Shown: positions 1,346-35,020 of the stretch, in pieces
How the letters are laid out: every line of letters begins with the position of its first letter
Position numbering within the stretch: the first letter of the stretch is position 1
Assembly (NCBI GenBank): GCA_030264375.1
Contig: JASCQW010000190.1
Location: 44,046,321 to 44,106,283, forward strand
DNA from: Carcharhinus longimanus
Lineage: Eukaryota
Length of the DNA: 59,963 bases
Direction: 5' to 3'
Notes under the pieces: model-generated
The model's input: only the letters and a program-made list of their open reading frames with translations
What the model was told of the DNA's origin: nothing
Databases searched by the model: none
Translations under genes and position numbers: made by a program

Positions 1346-2721
1346 CCGATTGCCGCCTTGTTGCCTTTGTCAGTGTTTGGTCCTTTTTATTAACTTTCGA
1401 TTTGACCCACAGCAGCTCATTCAGCTTCTCTGGAGAGATCAAAAGATTAGATATTTCTGCTCTCGCTTCCTCTGCAATGAAAGGTGTTGCCCTGAGGGAG
1501 AGTCCACATTCAAAACATTATTTTTTCTGTCTTCTCCGTAATGTCCGACATGCTTCCAGCATCTTTGGTTTCAGGTTCCCAGCACCTTGAGTGATTTGCA
1601 ATTTTAAGTTTCAGTTTAACCCTTTGAGTACAGGTCTTCAACTGAACTAAAAGGTTTTCTCGCTAATGCATTATCATGTTGAAAATTGCTCCCACGCCAT
1701 AAAACCTCTGTGCTGATGTTTAATTAAAGATTAGATTTTGACGTGTGACTGTACAATGATGCAGAATATTGACGCATCCATGTGTGAAGTAATCTTGTGT
1801 ATTTGGATACAATCATGGCTAACACATGATGAGTGTCCAATCTGTTACGCCATCATGGATAGTCTCCAACCATAAGCAGTTTTTGCCCAGAGGCAGAGAA
1901 ATGTGGAGAAGTTTCCATTGATTATAATCTGAAGGGTGAGGGTAGGTGAGCCACTCAGGCACTTGTGAATCCAGATGGTGTATGTTGCAGGAAAACAGCA
2001 TAAATCAGAGTCTCCCTCTGAGAAATAATTAAATAGGAACCAGAATTGTTTTTGATTTGCTGCATTATTCTTGTGTATCTCTTTTAATGTTTCTTTAAAA
2101 GCAGAAGTTGCTGATTACAGTGTTTATTGCATTAATCGAGGCATTGTAGATTAGCTTAAGGTTTTACTTCAAAACTAGTCTTGACACGTCAGACTTTATG
2201 TAATGTTTTTTAACCTTTCTCACTGGCTTTCTGAATGTGCGCTCAATCAAGCAAAGCTTTCTGCGTTTAAAAATCTTCTGATAGAACAGAATTTTTAAAA
2301 ATCTTTTAGGTTGTTCACTAAAATTTATTGCAGCAGTTTCATGCTGGGGCTAATTCTTGCCATATGGCCCTTGATGAATAGTTGTAAAGGAGGAAATTTA
2401 AACAAATACTGCGCAGACCGGTCATTTCAAGTTGCTATTTAGGAAGAGTATTGCATCTCACAATATGACAAGCAAATTGCAACATTGCCCTGTCTTGTCC
2501 TGTGCTTTATCTGAAAGAAGATCATCTGTCTGTACGTACTATAACACGAGATGGGAGCAGCAGTTTAGAGCGATCCACGTTTTCAGCAGCAGTAAAGGCA
2601 AGCTGAAGTGAAATGTTACATTTCACTATATGCCGACCAGATTTCTGTAATGTACGAGTACAATGATAATTGCACTTTTGTCAATGTGTTTTACTATGTC
2701 AATATGCTGTTACCAGTAATG

Positions 2722-3350
2722 TCATCATCGGCTATCCCTCAATTCGAGGATGATGTTGACTCAGGATGGTGAGTTTCTGCATGGATTTTCATCTGATTGA
2801 ACAGGCCCATTCTTGCCCCCCAGATCTTTCGACACATGGGGCAAGACCTCCCACAAAGTAGTGGGATCTGGAGTGCAGGATTTGCTCTCTGTTCTCCACT
2901 TCTCTGCCTTCATCAATAAGGCATAGTGACTCAAAAGTGTGAGGCAGCTTGATGGACAAGTTGTCACCATTTTGAATGATTCAGAGCAAGCTCCTCCCAG
3001 TCATTATTATCAATGTTACTGATTTTTAAACAGAGTTTCAGAATGTCTGAATTCTGAAGCTCTGTTTAAAATGTAGTAACATTGATTTGTCCCTCCCTGA
3101 AAAATTGACCATTTTGAGTTGAGAAAACAAGATCTGACCAGTGAGATGTTTTTCAATCATCCCACAAAGTATTCCATCCACCAAAATTGATTTTGCCTGA
3201 ATTCCTGTGTAGCACCATAATGCCACATCTGGAACTGCCAGTGCTTCACTCTTTTATATAGCTTAACTGCCCTTTCCAAACACAACACAAATCCAGATCC
3301 TGGCAGTCTTTCACCGTTCAGTTGAATGCAGGGTGACAATTCCACAGCCC
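2722..3350 (-). mobile_element. Degraded RTE-clade LINE 3' portion
   Basis: Minus strand ends in tcatcctcgaattgagggatagccgatgatga (RTE-like 3' end); CIQLNGERLP resembles the RTE 'HVxRMxxxRLPK' motif. Confidence 0.55.
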
Positions 3351-3859
3351 TACAGAGAGCTTTGTTCTATCACCATCTTCAGACTGCAGTTAGAATTCTC
3401 CTGTCGCCAGCTTCAGACTCCATCTGGTATTTTATGAGCTCGCTTGGGCGAGGCTCATGAAATCCCACCCGAGGCCAATGGTGAATCCTGGAATGGGCAT
3501 GCTGGGAAAGCTCTGGTCCATGAAGGTGCATCAGTATTTTGTTCTGGATCCTTGATTTTGATGTGTGTTACTGGCAACATCACCAAGGGCCAAGGTGTCA
3601 GCTTGGCAAAGGTCATCAGCTCCAAGACCCCAGTTTGAATAAGATCATGAAGGATGAGGTGGCTTCCTGGAGACAATCCCTTACTGCCCACTTTCAGCTT
3701 AGAATCAGATTCCTAAGATTTCAACCACCAATGATTTGTCAAAACCCAAAATGACTGACAGTGATCCAAGAGCCACAAAGTAAAGATAGCTTTAAAATTT
3801 CAATATCCAGAATGAATCTTGTCTTCATGATTCTTGACTTTCAGAAGTGTTAAGAAGTC

Positions 3860-4666
3860 TGCTTTGCTGGAGGATGGGTAGAGGAAAATAAAACGTGATA
3901 GTGGTTGTTGAAACGAAAGTGTGAGATATTGCATTTTGGGAAGCTCAATCAAGGTAGGACTTCTATAGTGAATGGTTGGACCTTGGGAAGCATCGTGGAA
4001 CAGAGGAACCTTGAGTTCATGTGCACGGTTCTCTAAAGGTGGAGTCACAGGTAGATAGGGCAGTGGCATGCTGGCCTTCATCTGTCAGGGCAAAATGGGA
4101 AGTTATGTTGCAGTTATACAGGACGTTGGTGAGGCTGCAACTGGAGTATTGTGTTTGGTTTTGGTCGTCTTGCTGAAGGAAAGATGTTATTAAATTGAAG
4201 AGAGTGCAGAAGAGATTTACAAGGATGTTGCCAGGACTCCAAGGACTGAGTTATAGAGAGAGATTGGACAGGCTAGGACTACTTTCTTTGGAGCGTAGGA
4301 GACTGAGGGGTAATCTTATAAAGGTGTATAAGGTCATGAGAGGCATGGATAGGGTAAGTGCACTCAGTATTCTTCCCAGGGTTGGGGAACCGAGAACTAG
4401 GAGGCATAGGTTTAAGTTAAGAGGGAAGAGAATTAATGGGAATCTGAGGAGCAACTTTTTTACATAGAGGGTGATACGTATGTGGAATGAGCTGCCTATG
4501 GAAGTGGTTGAGACAGGGACATTGACAACATTTAAAAGGTGTTTGGACAGATATATGGATAGGAAAGGTTTAAAGGGATATGGGGCTAGCTTGGATGGCT
4601 TTTTGGTCATCATGGACCAGTTTGGGCCAAAGGACCTGTCTCTGTGCTGTACATTCTATGATTCTG
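3860..4666 (+). mobile_element. 5'-truncated CR1 LINE (ORF2 C-terminus and 3' UTR)
   Basis: KRVQKRFTRMLPGLQGLSYRERLDRLGLLSLERRRLRGNLIKVYK...RTRRHRFKL; ends with TTCTATGATTCTG tail; in-frame stop. Confidence 0.92.
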
Positions 4667-5350
4667 TGAAAGGGATTGGAATAATACAATCATACCAACT
4701 TGAATTTATGCCTCGTTAGCAGTCCATTTTAGAATTCAACTGAACCATGGTTGTCATATGCAGAAGCAGGAAGTTTTTTCTTTGGTGTACAGCAATGCTG
4801 GCTTTTGAGGAAGATTTCTTGGAAAAATAGTTGTTTTGCTTTAGACTAGGGAGAGTTGCTGTAATTAGTATATAGAGACAGACTCACAATAGTGAAGAGC
4901 AAGAGTTATGATCACGTGATTTATGGCTAATTTGCATTATTCAGCTGATGAAACCAGGTCCTGTAATCATTTACACTTTAAAGGTGTCAGATGAAAATAG
5001 AGGCATGTGCAAGGGTATATCGAAATACCAGTTCGAACAATAGCACATCCCAGCAAGGTGCACACAGCATGGCTATTTCAGGTAGAGCTGTTTTAATATG
5101 AGAACTACACTAGGTGCATTTTACATCTGAGATCACAACAGAGTGAATCGTGTTAGAAAAGCCACTGTGTTTCAACCTCAAAACGTTCGATGATAAATAT
5201 GATGGTAGTAACACATAGAATGTAGCTAAATGCAAATATGCAACCAGCACAAGGTTAACATTTATTTGTATGTCTGTCACCTTTGTGGTAAATTGATTTT
5301 TGCAAAAACATTACAGCTCACCTTTAAAACTCTGATTACCATGTACTGTC

Positions 5351-10589: not shown

Positions 10590-11100
10590 GGCCAGAATTT
10601 TCTAGCCCTTTTCCCCACAGTGGGTTTTCCTGAGCTGGAGGTGGCTCACTATTGGCCACTAGCAGGATAGAATCATAGAATCCCTCCAGTGCAGAAGGAA
10701 GCCATTCAGCCCATTGAGTCTACAATGACCATAATCCCACCCAGACCCTATTCCCGTAACCCCACATATTTTCCCTGCTAATCCCCTGATGCTCAGGTCA
10801 ATTTAGCATGGCCAGTCAACCTAACCCGCACATCTTTGGACTGTGGGAGGAAACTGGAGCAACCAGAAGAAACCCATGCAGACGCACGGAGAATGTGCAA
10901 ACTCCACACAAAGTGATCTGAAGCTGGAATTGAACCCGGGTCCTTGGCACTGAGAGGCAGCAGTGTTAATCGTTGTGCCACCAAGCCATTGACCTCGATC
11001 ACGCTGAAGTCTGATGTTTTGCATGGCCTGACCATCCTGCCACTAGGGAACCCATGGTGGAGATCAACTTCACTGGTAGGAAGGACTGGAAAATCTACCC
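10590..11100. mobile_element. MITE-like element interrupted by an HE1 SINE
   Basis: Termini ggccagaattttc ... ggaaaatctaccc resemble the other short MITEs in the window. Confidence 0.4.
10667..10987 (-). mobile_element. HE1-like V-SINE with CR1-type tail
   Basis: Reverse complement of the tRNA head, V-domain and TTCTATGATTCTA tail. Confidence 0.9.
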
Positions 11101-11282: not shown

Positions 11283-11500
11283 GCAGTAACTCGGCATTCA
11301 GGCTAAGATCAAGTGTTAGACAAAGCCTGAGGTCAGGTGCAATGCATTTTCTTGTCAGCTTGGATTTTGTTTGTCTTTCTTGGGTGACCATGAATTGGAT
11401 TCAATTTGAATTGGTTTTTGGAGCTAGCAAGGAGATGGATTAGGGACTTGCCATGTCCACTCTATGCATTGGCTTTGTAACTTTAAGAAACAAAATAAAA
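11283..11500 (+). pseudogene. RNU2: U2 snRNA-derived sequence (pseudogene or U2-derived repeat)
   Basis: CTCGGC..GGCTAAGATCAAGTGT (11290-11316), TTCTTgTCAG, Sm-like GTTTTTGGAGC, GGAGATGGAtTAGG..CTTGC..GTCCACTC.A.GCAT, collinear with vertebrate U2; then an A-rich tail. Confidence 0.85.
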
Positions 11501-12332
11501 TTAAATATGTATTTCAAGTTCATATTGGACTGCCAATTACATTTAATTCAAATATTAGCATCCGGTAGGCTTGTTAAAATACAATGGTTTGTTCCTTCCT
11601 CAATACCTGTCAGAGTTATGACACCTGTTCTGAAGCTGTCAGTTATCACAACAAATAGGCTGTGTAAGTCAATTTTTAACCCATTATGTATTGCGTTGTT
11701 AAAGAAGAAAGCCTGACATGGTGCGCCATGAACAAAAGGGCTTCATTTTTGTGACAGTGATGCTTATAAAGTTTTGTTTGCTGAATTGCTGACCTGAGCC
11801 CAATGGGATGAGAGGAAATATTGCGATGATTCCTGCACGTGCACACACACATCCGCACCCCCACAAAAGCTGCTGAGACAGCTGCTCACCCATTCAACCA
11901 TATTGAAAGCCCAAAATGGAACAAATCATATTAATATGAGAAAAGCAGAAACTGAAGTGGGACCATAAAGCAGATTATTAGTACATGGCCAAGTTCCACT
12001 CTGTTTTCACTTGGCAAAGCATCATGCCATTAGGACCTGTGTATGGCACAATGACAGTCTTGTCAAGGACCTGAAAATTATTTAAGTGAAGTGATGGCTT
12101 CATAATGGACTCCCAATCTCTGAACAACGTTCCAATTAGCCAGGCTGTTTATTGCTGGAGTCAATGAATCATGTTATGGTCACTTCTCAAAGTGGATTGT
12201 GTTTGATAGTTACCACAGTTATCTTCTTGCTCTCAATGAGAGAATTGTCAGTTTCTGGACTGTTTTTGATTACACCAGTGAAATGTGAAGTGTCTGCCTT
12301 TCTTTCTCCTCTTAAGTCTCCCAACTGTTGGT

Positions 12333-32462: not shown

Positions 32463-34249
32463 ACAATAATATTGGAAGGATTTTTCTTCCTTTTGTGTTG
32501 CATATTTCGAGCTCTGTCTCAATATCTTAATTAAGGATTTGCATTATGTACAGCAAGGATTTGAAAAACTACTATGGCAGTAACTTTCATCGTAAAGTCA
32601 TCATTTATCATCTGATAATTTACTGAGAGGGAACATTTCATCATTAGTTAAGTACTTTGTGTTTATTCTATCTGTTCAAATGTTAAACTGTTGATTCTTA
32701 AAGTTCAGCATTTGCCATGTCGATATTTTAACGAGTTGTTATTGCCATTGTTAATACACTGTACACCAGTCATTGTAAGCCATCTAGGGTAAAATAATTG
32801 TTTTCCAAAACTTATAATTTCAACATGTTTTAAGTTTGTCCACATTTACTATTCCAGTTCATTTTTGTGTATTTTGTCCTTGGCAAAGATTGTGCCAGAC
32901 ACCTGCAGGAACTGGCTGGTTATGTGTAAACCTGGCATTGGTGTTGTATTTGTGTGATATTGAGGTGTTTGGTTCAGCACAATGCAAGCTGGTATGTACA
33001 GATCTTTGGCACCATATTGAAATAAGTTGTCCGTTGTGTGGCTGGTGAAAAAATGAATACTTGTGATAACAATTGCCATCTGAAGGGAGGTTATGAGAAC
33101 ACATGCTCATGCATATAAGCCTCACTGCTTACTATGATTAAGTTGAAGACAAATAAACAGCTACTGGTGAAACTAGACACTTACAACTGATACAATCACA
33201 GTGCATGTTGTGTACCCACGTTATGGCTGGGAGGATGGTGACAATGTACTCGCACATGTTATTCTAAGGTTATGATGTTCACCATGTCATTTTTGGGAGC
33301 TGATGGTATTTGCATTCAGAGCTGAAATTCACACGCATCAGTTGTCTGTTGATTAAACTTTTTGTTGCAAATATATACTTTATTCATAAAATATCTGAAA
33401 GAACATTGCAAACATTTCAAAATAGTTGTCACGGTATGATAATGTTCAGGCTTTCGACATAGATCATATTGCATTCTGAGGTGCTTCAGTACAGCCAAAG
33501 GAATGTTACAGACGTTTCAAGATGAACTAGTGATTACCTTCCTTGGGAGAGAGATAAGAGTCTTGGGGTTCAGGTGATTCTTTCATAAGGGAGAGAAAGT
33601 GGGGTTACATTGCAATTCTAGTGGATCCAAGATGATGTGTCTCATAATGGCAGTTCAGAATGAAGTCAACCAACATAGCTTGTAATTTTTATTTGTTGAA
33701 TGTGAGTGATTTGTTTAATTACAGAGGTCCTTTAAAGTTTATTGTGCTCTCGTGGTAACTTAAAGNNNNNNNNNNNNNNNNNNNNNNNNNNNNNNNNNNN
33801 NNNNNNNNNNNNNNNNNTTTTCCATTCCAGGAAGGCCTAGCTTCCAGGTAGCCAGCAGACTCTGTAATCTGATAGCTGACCCAGGCAGGTCCACACTACC
33901 CAAGGGCACTGTTAAAAATTAACTCACCAACCTGGCTCACAAATGAATCCTGAGGTTAAATTTGATGGGGTCCCAGGACTAAATTCACTCAGGTTTCAGG
34001 TAACTCTACTAATCAATGCCCCAGAGGATAGCACGTTCTCTGGTAAACAAGCTGTAGTAAGCTGCATTGTATTAACTACATAAACACCAGCAATAGCCTT
34101 TCAGACACATCCTAGGATCCTGACTCTGCACCAAAGAGTTCTGGACCTGGGAAAAAGATGTATGCTCCTATGTGTACATTCCAGATTGGACAAATAGATA
34201 GTGGATTTCTCAACTCGATTTAGGTTTAGTTGCTGCACATTTTTGTTTG

Positions 34250-35020
34250 CAAGAATGTACTTTATTCAAAAAAATCTGAAAGAAACATTACAAAACATTT
34301 CAAAATGTCACAAGAAAGTAAAATTATATTCACATCAGGATGCACTCTCGAGATGCTTCAATTTAGTATTGAAATATTGCAAATATTTCAATATTTTCAT
34401 TAAAGAGTACAATTCTGTTCAAATTATATACATTGGTCATGTTGCACTCAGACGTGTTTCAGCACAGTTATATATGATCAGGATTAAGCACACAATCCAC
34501 GGGGTTTCAATGGTTACTAGCCCCTTGGTGTACATTGGCTCAAGAGCCTTACACTGTGAGCTTTCCCCATTGCATTTTGGTGATGGCTGTTCCAAGCTTA
34601 ATAGCGTCCTTAAGCACATAGTCCTGGACCTTGGAATATGCCAGTCTGCAAAATCCAGTGGAGGACAATTCCTTGCATTGAAAGACCAATAGGTGTTGGG
34701 CAGCCCAAGGAGCATCTTTCACTGAGTTGGTGATCCTCCAGCAGCAGTGGATGTGTGTCTTGGTGTGCGTCCCCGGAAATAGCCCACAGAGCAGAATCCT
34801 GCGTCACAGAACTGCTTGGCGTGAATCTTGACGAAAACCGTTACGTCTCTTCAGACTAAAGACACATTTCAGAAGGCAGATTCCACAAGGAGGTGTGCAA
34901 CCATCTCTCTACTACCACAACCCCCCCCACCCCCCAAACAGTTGCTTCCAGTGCAGCATGATGTTGAGCGTGCATGGAGGATTGATGGGGAGTTCCCTTC
35001 TCACCAGAAGCCAAGCTGCA
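34250..35020 (-). mobile_element. Tx1-clade (L1 group) LINE ORF2 C-terminus and 3' UTR
   Basis: Minus strand reads ...GLFPGTHTKTHIHCCWRITNSVKDAPWAAQHLLVFQCKELSSTGFCRLAYSKVQDYVLKDAIKLG; AATAAA near the 3' end. Confidence 0.75.

What the first reader, a model, noticed from the sequence alone, without database searches (positions are those of the whole stretch)
11283..11500. U2 snRNA-derived element with a duplicated branch-pairing segment and an A-rich tail
Seen: collinear similarity to vertebrate U2 from the 5' stem to stem-loop III. After a perfect GGCTAAGATCAAGTGT come 'tagacaaa' and a second, transition-rich copy of the same segment (gcctgaggtcaggtgcaatgc versus GGCTAAGATCAAGTGTAGTAT). There is extra sequence before the Sm site (GTTTTTGG), stem-loop IV is missing, and aagaaacaaaataaaa follows. 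Known: Keno (Tx1 clade) and Utopia retrotransposons target this part of U2, and U2-headed SINEs (SINEU) exist in crocodilians. Inference: it could be a plain retro-pseudogene, the scar of a U2-targeting element, or a member of a U2-derived SINE/variant snRNA family in sharks. The unequal divergence of the two duplicated segments is odd for a neutrally decaying copy.
Basis: partly seen in the sequence, partly recalled or inferred. Interest (0 to 1): 0.7.

Follow-up and report, generated by a model that had tools for sequence, protein, structure and literature searches.

The report
Abundant U2-derived shark retroposon family
This is one old, decayed copy of a short jumping element built from the splicing RNA U2 that is scattered in hundreds to thousands of places in a probable shark genome and was likely pasted in by a neighbouring class of LINE retrotransposons, a kind of element I found described only in crocodilians.

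Summary
U2 origin holds, although the Rfam score is weak (15.2 bits, cut-off 46). This is not a lone pseudogene: it is one copy, 91% like the working consensus, of a dispersed family of about 215 nt (904 matches to a 29-mer at up to 2 mismatches, control 0, sister family included). The 'duplication' is a 12-nt unit present three times and belongs to the family. Copies decay equally in head and body, so the unequal divergence is the master's. The branch-point sequence, the Sm-site A and stem-loop IV are lost. The consensus folds into a long hairpin (z -3.6) that this copy has lost (z +0.8). TSDs occur in 10 of 78 copies (null 0.9), not here. An APE-type LINE tail directly precedes a copy in 7 of 29 LINE loci. 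A sister family sits at U2 nt 39, the Keno site, at 5 loci; this family at none of 86. Verdict: inert copy of a SINEU-like family with no young copy seen; SINEU is in print only for crocodilians in my searches; Repbase and Dfam unchecked. The scan noted this family and its sisters before, in this and other genomes.

The parts
11290..11317 (+). U2-like head (U2 nt 8 to about 35: stem I and first 12-nt unit); stops inside the branch-point recognition sequence
11306..11341 (+).
   Evidence: sequence; alignment; three of 42 aligned copies lack about one unit (L024, L116, L118)
11318..11367 (+). Hairpin module (GATCAAGCC-stem-TCAGCTTGGATC in the family consensus), shared with sister families B and C; decayed in this copy
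11368..11421 (+). Remodelled U2 stem IIb region, 11-nt insertion and degenerate Sm site (11413-11421)
11422..11479 (+). U2 stem-loop III homologue and U2 nt about 145-160; stem-loop IV absent
11480..11506 (+). Family-specific end and A/T-rich tail with an AATAAA hexamer (11494-11499); no TSD found at this copy

Best explanation
This stretch is one decayed copy of a dispersed, roughly 215-nt element made from U2 snRNA, likely an extinct SINEU-type retroposon that was likely copied into the genome by the enzyme of an APE-type (Tx1-like) LINE. Shown: a U2 derivative with a tripled 12-nt unit, no branch-point hexamer, a degenerate Sm site, no stem-loop IV and an A-rich end; at least several hundred copies with the same layout; TSDs of 9-16 nt in a minority of copies; strong stacking with one LINE family at the same sites; no copy closer than 94% to the working consensus among 86. 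Inferred (about 0.7): that LINE family, or its U2-targeting Keno-like sister, supplied endonuclease and reverse transcriptase. Inferred (about 0.6): the master RNA was a Pol II, polyadenylated transcript folded into a long hairpin that buries the U2 head, so that it would not enter the spliceosome, while the hairpin module would serve as the conserved handle of the RNA. Inferred (about 0.4): the master was transcribed from a U2 gene promoter, as the layout of sister family B (U2 1-40 head, insertion before U2 nt 39) suggests; this is not shown for this family. This copy itself is most likely inert.
For: Family: 40 other places scored at 79-89% over the element, 2731 first-look candidates; 4749 candidates with a second copy as query, best non-self 88%; 44 exact and 904 near-exact 29-mer matches on both strands, reversed control 0; about 2000 contigs laid on the stretch, with depth piled on the element, in each of three runs of organisms B, C, D. 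Retroposition: TSD score 9 or more in 10 of 78 copies against 0.9 (max 2) in 12 shuffles of flank pairing; variable 5' starts with a fixed 3' end (70 of 86 reach consensus nt 210); AATAAA in 21 and AGTAAA in 16 of 74 tails. Partner: LINE tail within 110 nt upstream in 5 of 59 copies against 3 of 1106 background windows; from the LINE side 7 of 29 other loci have a copy directly behind the tail, one more directly in front; in L150 the copy carries its own TSD at the LINE's 3' junction. The LINE pieces hold zf-RVT and match proteins with APE endonuclease plus RT domains. Structure: consensus nt 24-97 folds at -24.9 kcal/mol, z -3.6; 56 of 2000 random substitution sets of equal number fold as well; the module closes on two different stems, CAAGA/TCTTG and TTGGA/TCCAA, and 40 of 41 distinct interiors keep at least 4 of 5 closing pairs. 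Neutral decay: this copy's hairpin z +0.76, whole copy z -0.99; no covariation among 42 copies beyond shuffles (145 of 500); orthologous contig of organism C differs at 2 of 82 element letters and 6 of 177 flank letters. U2 site: family B followed by U2 from nt 39 at five loci, with two different U2 paralogue types (L059, L060); LINE tails at the same site (L122, L125, L129).
Against: No TSD at this copy; an earlier TSD test on 59 copies was not above its null (6 against 2.85, max 8). No copy of this family is followed by U2 nt 39 (0 of 86; the tail-plus-U2 pattern gave 3 hits, all family B), and its head ends at U2 nt 34-35, not 38-40. No master locus or shared upstream promoter was found. 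The element shares no tail sequence with the LINE, and the LINE's clade was not placed on a tree; stacking could reflect insertion into the LINE's poly(A) by another enzyme or template jumps. Family B shows no such LINE adjacency (0 of 29). The whole consensus folds only modestly better than shuffles (z -1.8), RNAalifold on the copies did not recover the hairpin, and the stem swap between modules is two lineages, not many events. The 904 count includes sister family C (4 of the 29 distinct exact-match loci fetched). Copies were sampled by similarity, so identity figures are biased upward.
Confidence: 0.82

Rival explanations
1. The copies are processed pseudogenes of a lost or unassembled variant U2-like small RNA gene with its own promoter, which the host kept for a function; they never were a selfish family.
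For: The master kept stem I, stem-loop III and a T-run at the Sm position and gained a compensated hairpin. Ordinary U2 retro-copies are common in this genome (48 RF00004 matches over cut-off among 48 scored). U2 arrays may be collapsed in this assembly.
Against: No near-identical or young copy (best pair 88-89%); Sm-site A and branch hexamer lost; the same module is reused in composite families B and C with U1, U4 and U2 pieces and up to four tandem modules, as in SINEU evolution; poly(A)-signal-like end.
Confidence: 0.08
2. The family is a true Pol III SINE whose internal promoter arose from U2 itself: the head gives an A-box-like stretch and the tripled unit created a B-box-like GATCAAGCC.
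For: The one match in the family A consensus, and the two in family B, to a B-box consensus (recalled, not from a call) are exactly the conserved 5' arm of the module; U2 is one letter away from it; sister families multiply the module.
Against: A 9-letter degenerate match is expected by chance in about 1 of 20 sequences of this length (my estimate); the two boxes would lie only about 19 nt apart in family A; runs of 4-5 T inside the consensus would stop Pol III (same argument as in PMC4494074); the arm is paired with a conserved complementary arm, which points to RNA structure.
Confidence: 0.07
3. The locus is an independent U2 pseudogene or the scar of a Keno or Utopia insertion in a U2 copy.
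For: Keno-like LINE tails do sit at U2 nt 39 in this genome.
Against: The same rearrangement is shared by all sampled copies; no U2 1-38 / 39-end split at this locus.
Confidence: 0.02
4. This particular copy has been exapted as a regulatory element or RNA.
For: The insertion is shared with at least two other organism labels.
Against: Hairpin decayed; divergence from organism C no lower than expected from the flank, on few letters (2 of 82 against 6 of 177).
Confidence: 0.02

Closest known systems
SINEU-3 of crocodilians (Kojima 2015, PMC4494074; parts 1-4 of 5 of the text read, figures and supplements not available)
   Same: Short element that is essentially a rearranged U2: about 32 nt of U2 5' end, a downstream U2 block of about 83 nt, a unique 3' end and poly(A); about 1,600 copies; old; shares target sites with Tx1 LINEs.
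   Different: SINEU-3 has an internal deletion of about 50 nt; this family keeps that region, remodelled into a long hairpin, with a 24-nt insertion. No Mariner target seen here. Host is a probable shark. Sequence homology to SINEU-3 could not be tested.
SINEU-1 and SINEU-2 of crocodilians (PMC4494074)
   Same: Repeated addition of U1 or U2 pieces at the 5' end and partial duplications; sister families B (U2 1-40 head plus inner U2 head) and C (U1, U4 and U2 pieces) show the same logic.
   Different: A shared hairpin module, a U4 piece and insertion at the U2 nt 39 site are not described in the parts of that paper I read.
Keno (Tx1 clade, APE) and Utopia (RLE) U2-targeting LINEs (PMC4640811, parts 1-2 of 5 read; PMC4494074)
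   Same: Same target junction (U2 from nt 39 follows the 3' end) is used in this genome by APE-type LINE tails and by family B.
   Different: The element here is non-coding, 215 nt, and was not found at that junction.
U2 snRNA and its processed pseudogenes (Rfam RF00004)
   Same: Collinear homology from stem I to stem-loop III.
   Different: Far below the gathering score; splicing-critical motifs lost in the family master; shared derived layout in hundreds of copies.

Membership tests
SINEU (snRNA-headed SINE) | 5' head derived from U1 or U2 snRNA | tested here: met
   Consensus head 32 of 34 letters like this genome's U2; copy alignment
SINEU (snRNA-headed SINE) | Many dispersed copies that share one derived structure (not independent chimeras) | tested here: met
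SINEU (snRNA-headed SINE) | Short (<500 nt), non-coding, A-rich 3' tail | tested here: met
   About 215 nt; tails
SINEU (snRNA-headed SINE) | Signs of LINE-type insertion (TSD, 5' truncation) | tested here: met
   Family level: 10 of 78 against 0.9; not above null in the smaller first test; absent at this copy
SINEU (snRNA-headed SINE) | Target sharing with Tx1-clade LINEs | tested here: inconclusive
   Strong stacking with an APE-RT-zf-RVT LINE family; Tx1 clade not placed by phylogeny, the name rests on the Keno definition in PMC4640811 and on recalled look of the ORF2 end
SINEU (snRNA-headed SINE) | Common descent with crocodilian SINEU-1/2/3 | not testable with these tools
   No SINEU sequences available (supplements not held; no Repbase)
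SINEU (snRNA-headed SINE) | No internal Pol III promoter; transcription from outside | tested here: inconclusive
   Internal T-runs present, but one B-box-like match; no transcript data
Functional U2 snRNA gene | RF00004 score at or above 46 bits | tested here: not met
   15.2 bits
Functional U2 snRNA gene | Branch-point recognition GUAGUA, intact Sm site, stem-loop IV | tested here: not met
Functional U2 snRNA gene | PSE upstream and 3' box downstream | tested here: inconclusive
   No flank shared with the best U2 locus or among 86 copies; no PSE model for this organism was available
Keno/Utopia insertion scar | U2 nt 1-38, then insert with poly(A), then U2 from nt 39 | tested here: not met
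   0 of 86 copies; met instead by family B and by LINE tails

The most novel reading that the evidence does not exclude
Sharks carry their own radiation of snRNA-built retroposons, assembled from U2, U1 and U4 pieces around a conserved hairpin module that hides the splicing-active U2 head and is the handle for a Tx1/Keno reverse transcriptase; master copies are transcribed by homing into U2 genes at the Keno site and using the U2 promoter, which would answer the open question of how promoter-less SINEU elements are transcribed.
Probability: 0.35. Interest if true: 0.7.

Novelty: new variant of a known kind. Interest (0 to 1): 0.5.

Why it matters
SINEU is the only described SINE class with snRNA heads, and the paper that named it found it only in crocodilians and left its transcription open (PMC4494074). 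A second, abundant set in a probable shark, with a shared RNA module, a LINE family that stacks at the same sites and a sister family sitting at the Keno site of U2, gives an independent case and a testable route to transcription. The single copy in this window matters only as a member; it is also a usable presence/absence marker among related species. The scan has noted these families repeatedly, so this report adds counts and tests rather than a first sighting.

Tried and rejected
Rfam at gathering level and with wider context: no match. Repeat search around the copy: no TSD-like pair. RNAalifold on 42 copies: 9 pairs, -1.96 kcal/mol, not the consensus hairpin. First pair count used a structure string shifted by one column and is void; corrected. 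Expression: no RNA holder listed for the locus; X1, only guessed to be RNA, has contigs of other family copies and none on the flanks; neither is evidence on expression. Occupancy of the U2 site in other species' runs was left untested. Unplaced contig C30935 was fetched as a possible master: an ordinary old copy. The protein atlas gave no answer for the LINE piece. No intact LINE ORF in eight extended loci. Long open frames in the window are repeats or gaps; no host gene was identified. The idea that the tail derives from the U2 3' flank, as in stem-loop-IV-less U2 copies L046-L048, was not supported by the global alignment and is left open. Literature: searches for U2 snRNA + SINE + shark (5 papers), SINEU + snRNA (45, 20 listed), Keno/U2/shark/retrotransposon (12), SINEU whole word (23, 21 listed), snRNA-derived + SINE + cartilaginous fish (1), Tx1 + Keno + shark (0), U2-derived/retroposon/shark (51, 20 listed) showed no shark SINEU in listings; passages checked in PMC4455052, PMC5786205, PMC5381603, PMC5499810 name none.

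Full report
Observation. Rfam gives U2 as the highest-scoring match but weakly: 15.2 bits, E 0.56, gathering score 46; nothing reached E 1 with 1.8 kb of context and the window has no match at gathering level. A direct alignment to this genome's best U2 locus (L031, 188 bits) settles the origin: collinear from U2 nt 8 to 160, score 89 against at most 42 in 500 shuffles, with insertions of 24, 11 and 4 nt.

It is a family. A search of the own genome (2.68 Gb) found 2731 candidates; the 40 scored places include 39 others at 79-89% identity on many contigs. A 29-mer from the body matches 44 times exactly and 904 times with up to 2 mismatches, with 0 for the reversed control. Of the 29 distinct exact-match loci fetched, 4 belong to a sister family C that shares this segment, so 904 is a floor for A plus C. 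A binomial reading of the two counts is self-consistent near 5,000 copies, and the first-look candidate numbers were 2731 and 4749; I take 2,000-5,000 as a rough estimate. With a second copy as query the best non-self match was 88%; 86 distinct copies average 88.7% and reach at most 93.6% to a working consensus. The family is therefore old, and no young copy was seen. This copy is 91% like the consensus. Contigs of organisms C and D bridge flank and element at this locus, and about 2000 contigs per run are laid, with depth piled on the element, in organisms B, C and D: the insertion predates their split and the family is abundant in them too.

Anatomy. The family is U2 nt 1-160 rebuilt. The head stops inside the branch-point recognition sequence, and the third unit carries a changed version, so GTAGTA occurs in 1 of 80 copies. 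The Sm site has G for A in 34 of 42 copies. Stem-loop IV is replaced by a short unique end with AATAAA (21 of 74) or AGTAAA (16 of 74) and an A/T-rich tail. Against U2, the consensus head matches at 32 of 34 letters, the inner part at 38 of 58, the 3' part at 67 of 82; against the consensus, copies match 88.4% in the head and 87.6% in the hairpin. So the unequal divergence lies in the master, and the copies decay evenly. Head positions 32-33 show a CpG decay pattern (TG 16, CA 15, CG 8 among 59 rows), so one letter of this copy's perfect U2 match is likely a reversion by decay.

Structure. The consensus folds nt 24-97 into one long hairpin (-24.9 kcal/mol, z -3.6, 2 of 300 shuffles as good) that pairs the U2 head with the body; this copy's version has decayed (-12.9, z +0.76). 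Of 2000 random sets of the same number and kind of substitutions on U2, 56 fold as well as the real set, modest support for structure-directed change. Among 42 copies 87.6% of cells pair, without covariation beyond shuffles (145 of 500), as expected of dead copies of one master; RNAalifold alone did not find the hairpin. The stronger sign is between families: the module GATCAAGCC-stem-TCAGCTTGGATC occurs once in A, twice in B and up to four times in C, and closes on two different fully paired stems (18 interiors CAAGA/TCTTG, 7 TTGGA/TCCAA; 40 of 41 keep at least 4 of 5 closing pairs). That is two lineages, not many events. The reading that the fold masks the U2 head came to me from earlier notes of this scan; I tested it only by folding.

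Mobilisation. TSDs of 9-16 nt score 9 or more in 10 of 78 copies against 0.9 in shuffled flank pairs; a first test on 59 copies with a lower threshold was not above its null (6 against 2.85, max 8). This copy has none. Five of 59 copies have the 3' end of one LINE family within 110 nt upstream, against 3 of 1106 background windows. Searching with that LINE's 3' UTR alone, 7 of the 29 other loci fetched have a family A copy directly behind the tail (2 of them already seen from the A side), and one more has it directly in front. In L150 the A copy is bracketed by its own TSD right at the LINE's 3' junction, the layout of two insertions at one cut. The LINE pieces carry zf-RVT and their homologues carry APE endonuclease and RT domains, so they are L1-group, not the RLE-type Utopia. 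I call them Tx1-like; no tree was built. The element shares no tail sequence with them, and family B does not show this adjacency (0 of 29).

Transcription. Kojima left it open (PMC4494074, part 4). Family B (about 300 nt, 2271 candidates, TSDs in 8 of 30 against 0.65) starts with U2 nt 1-40 and is followed by U2 from nt 39 at five loci (L059, L060, L126, L128, L202), two of them with different U2 paralogue types. PMC4640811 gives nt 39 as the Keno and Utopia junction. Of 9 exact hits for poly(A) plus U2 nt 39, three follow B, three follow a LINE tail (one through a 28-nt spacer), one follows a short tail remnant, one follows a bare U2 head and one an unidentified sequence. The RT piece upstream of one of these LINE tails is 72% identical to that of an A-associated LINE. 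An element inserted there in a real U2 gene would be transcribed from the U2 promoter and would acquire exactly such a head. For family A this is inference only: 0 of 86 copies are followed by U2 nt 39 or share an upstream flank with the best U2 locus, all 3 hits of a tail-plus-U2 pattern are B, and the head ends at nt 34-35. A Pol III route is a minor rival: the module's 5' arm fits a recalled B-box consensus, but internal T-runs argue against it.

Comparison. It works like SINEU, closest in layout to SINEU-3, and meets the structural features tested; common descent with crocodilian SINEU could not be tested (supplements not held). Seven literature searches and passages of four reviews or shark SINE papers showed no shark SINEU; Repbase and Dfam were not searchable and may hold it. 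Earlier notes of this scan describe the same family and its sisters in this and other genomes; none is near this window or matched by sequence. They are not independent support.

Verdict. An inert copy of a real, abundant, old U2-derived retroposon family; new variant of a known kind; interest 0.5.

Noticed in passing
L059, L060, L061-L090, L126, L128, L202 (e.g. G000:C133:42340120-42340555): Sister family B, about 300 nt: U2 1-40 head, a stretch predicted to pair with it, an inner U2 head, two hairpin modules, poly(A), clear TSDs (8 of 30); five loci are followed by U2 from nt 39.
   Followed up: yes
L092, L099, L107, L114: Sister family C: diverged U1 piece (RF00003, 18.5 bits, E 0.015), a 23-nt U4 5' stem-loop piece (17.1 bits), then a U2 head and one to four hairpin modules, ending at the Sm-like site.
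   Followed up: partly
L122, L125, L129 (G000:C32:64140250, C132:8291570, C12653:33): APE-type LINE 3' ends followed by U2 from nt 39: Keno-like elements in a probable shark; no paper with Tx1, Keno and shark was found.
   Followed up: partly
L046, L047, L048 (small contigs C14265, C1651, C27885): Three U2 copies that lack stem-loop IV, joined to the U2 3' flank, inside a larger repeated unit with shared flanks and a tRNA-like piece upstream.
   Followed up: no
L035-L044, L049, L051, L056, L057, L060: Many dispersed U2 retro-copies carry the same 35-40 nt 3' extension of the gene, so 3'-extended precursors or read-through transcripts were the templates; several start at or near U2 nt 38.
   Followed up: no
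L023, L191: Tandem stacks: two family A copies head to tail followed by the LINE (L023), and a module-bearing element directly before an A copy (L191).
   Followed up: partly
window 33365-34785 (- strand): Three pieces 69-76% like the 3' end of the same Tx1-like LINE family, 22 kb from the element.
   Followed up: no
window 10670-10990: A common repeat (75-80% matches in flanks of several other loci) that looks like a CR1-type tail plus an HE1-type SINE; the names are recalled, not tested.
   Followed up: no
L124 (G000:C105:26661117): An unidentified sequence ends in a short A-run followed by U2 nt 38-93; possibly a further element using the same site.
   Followed up: no
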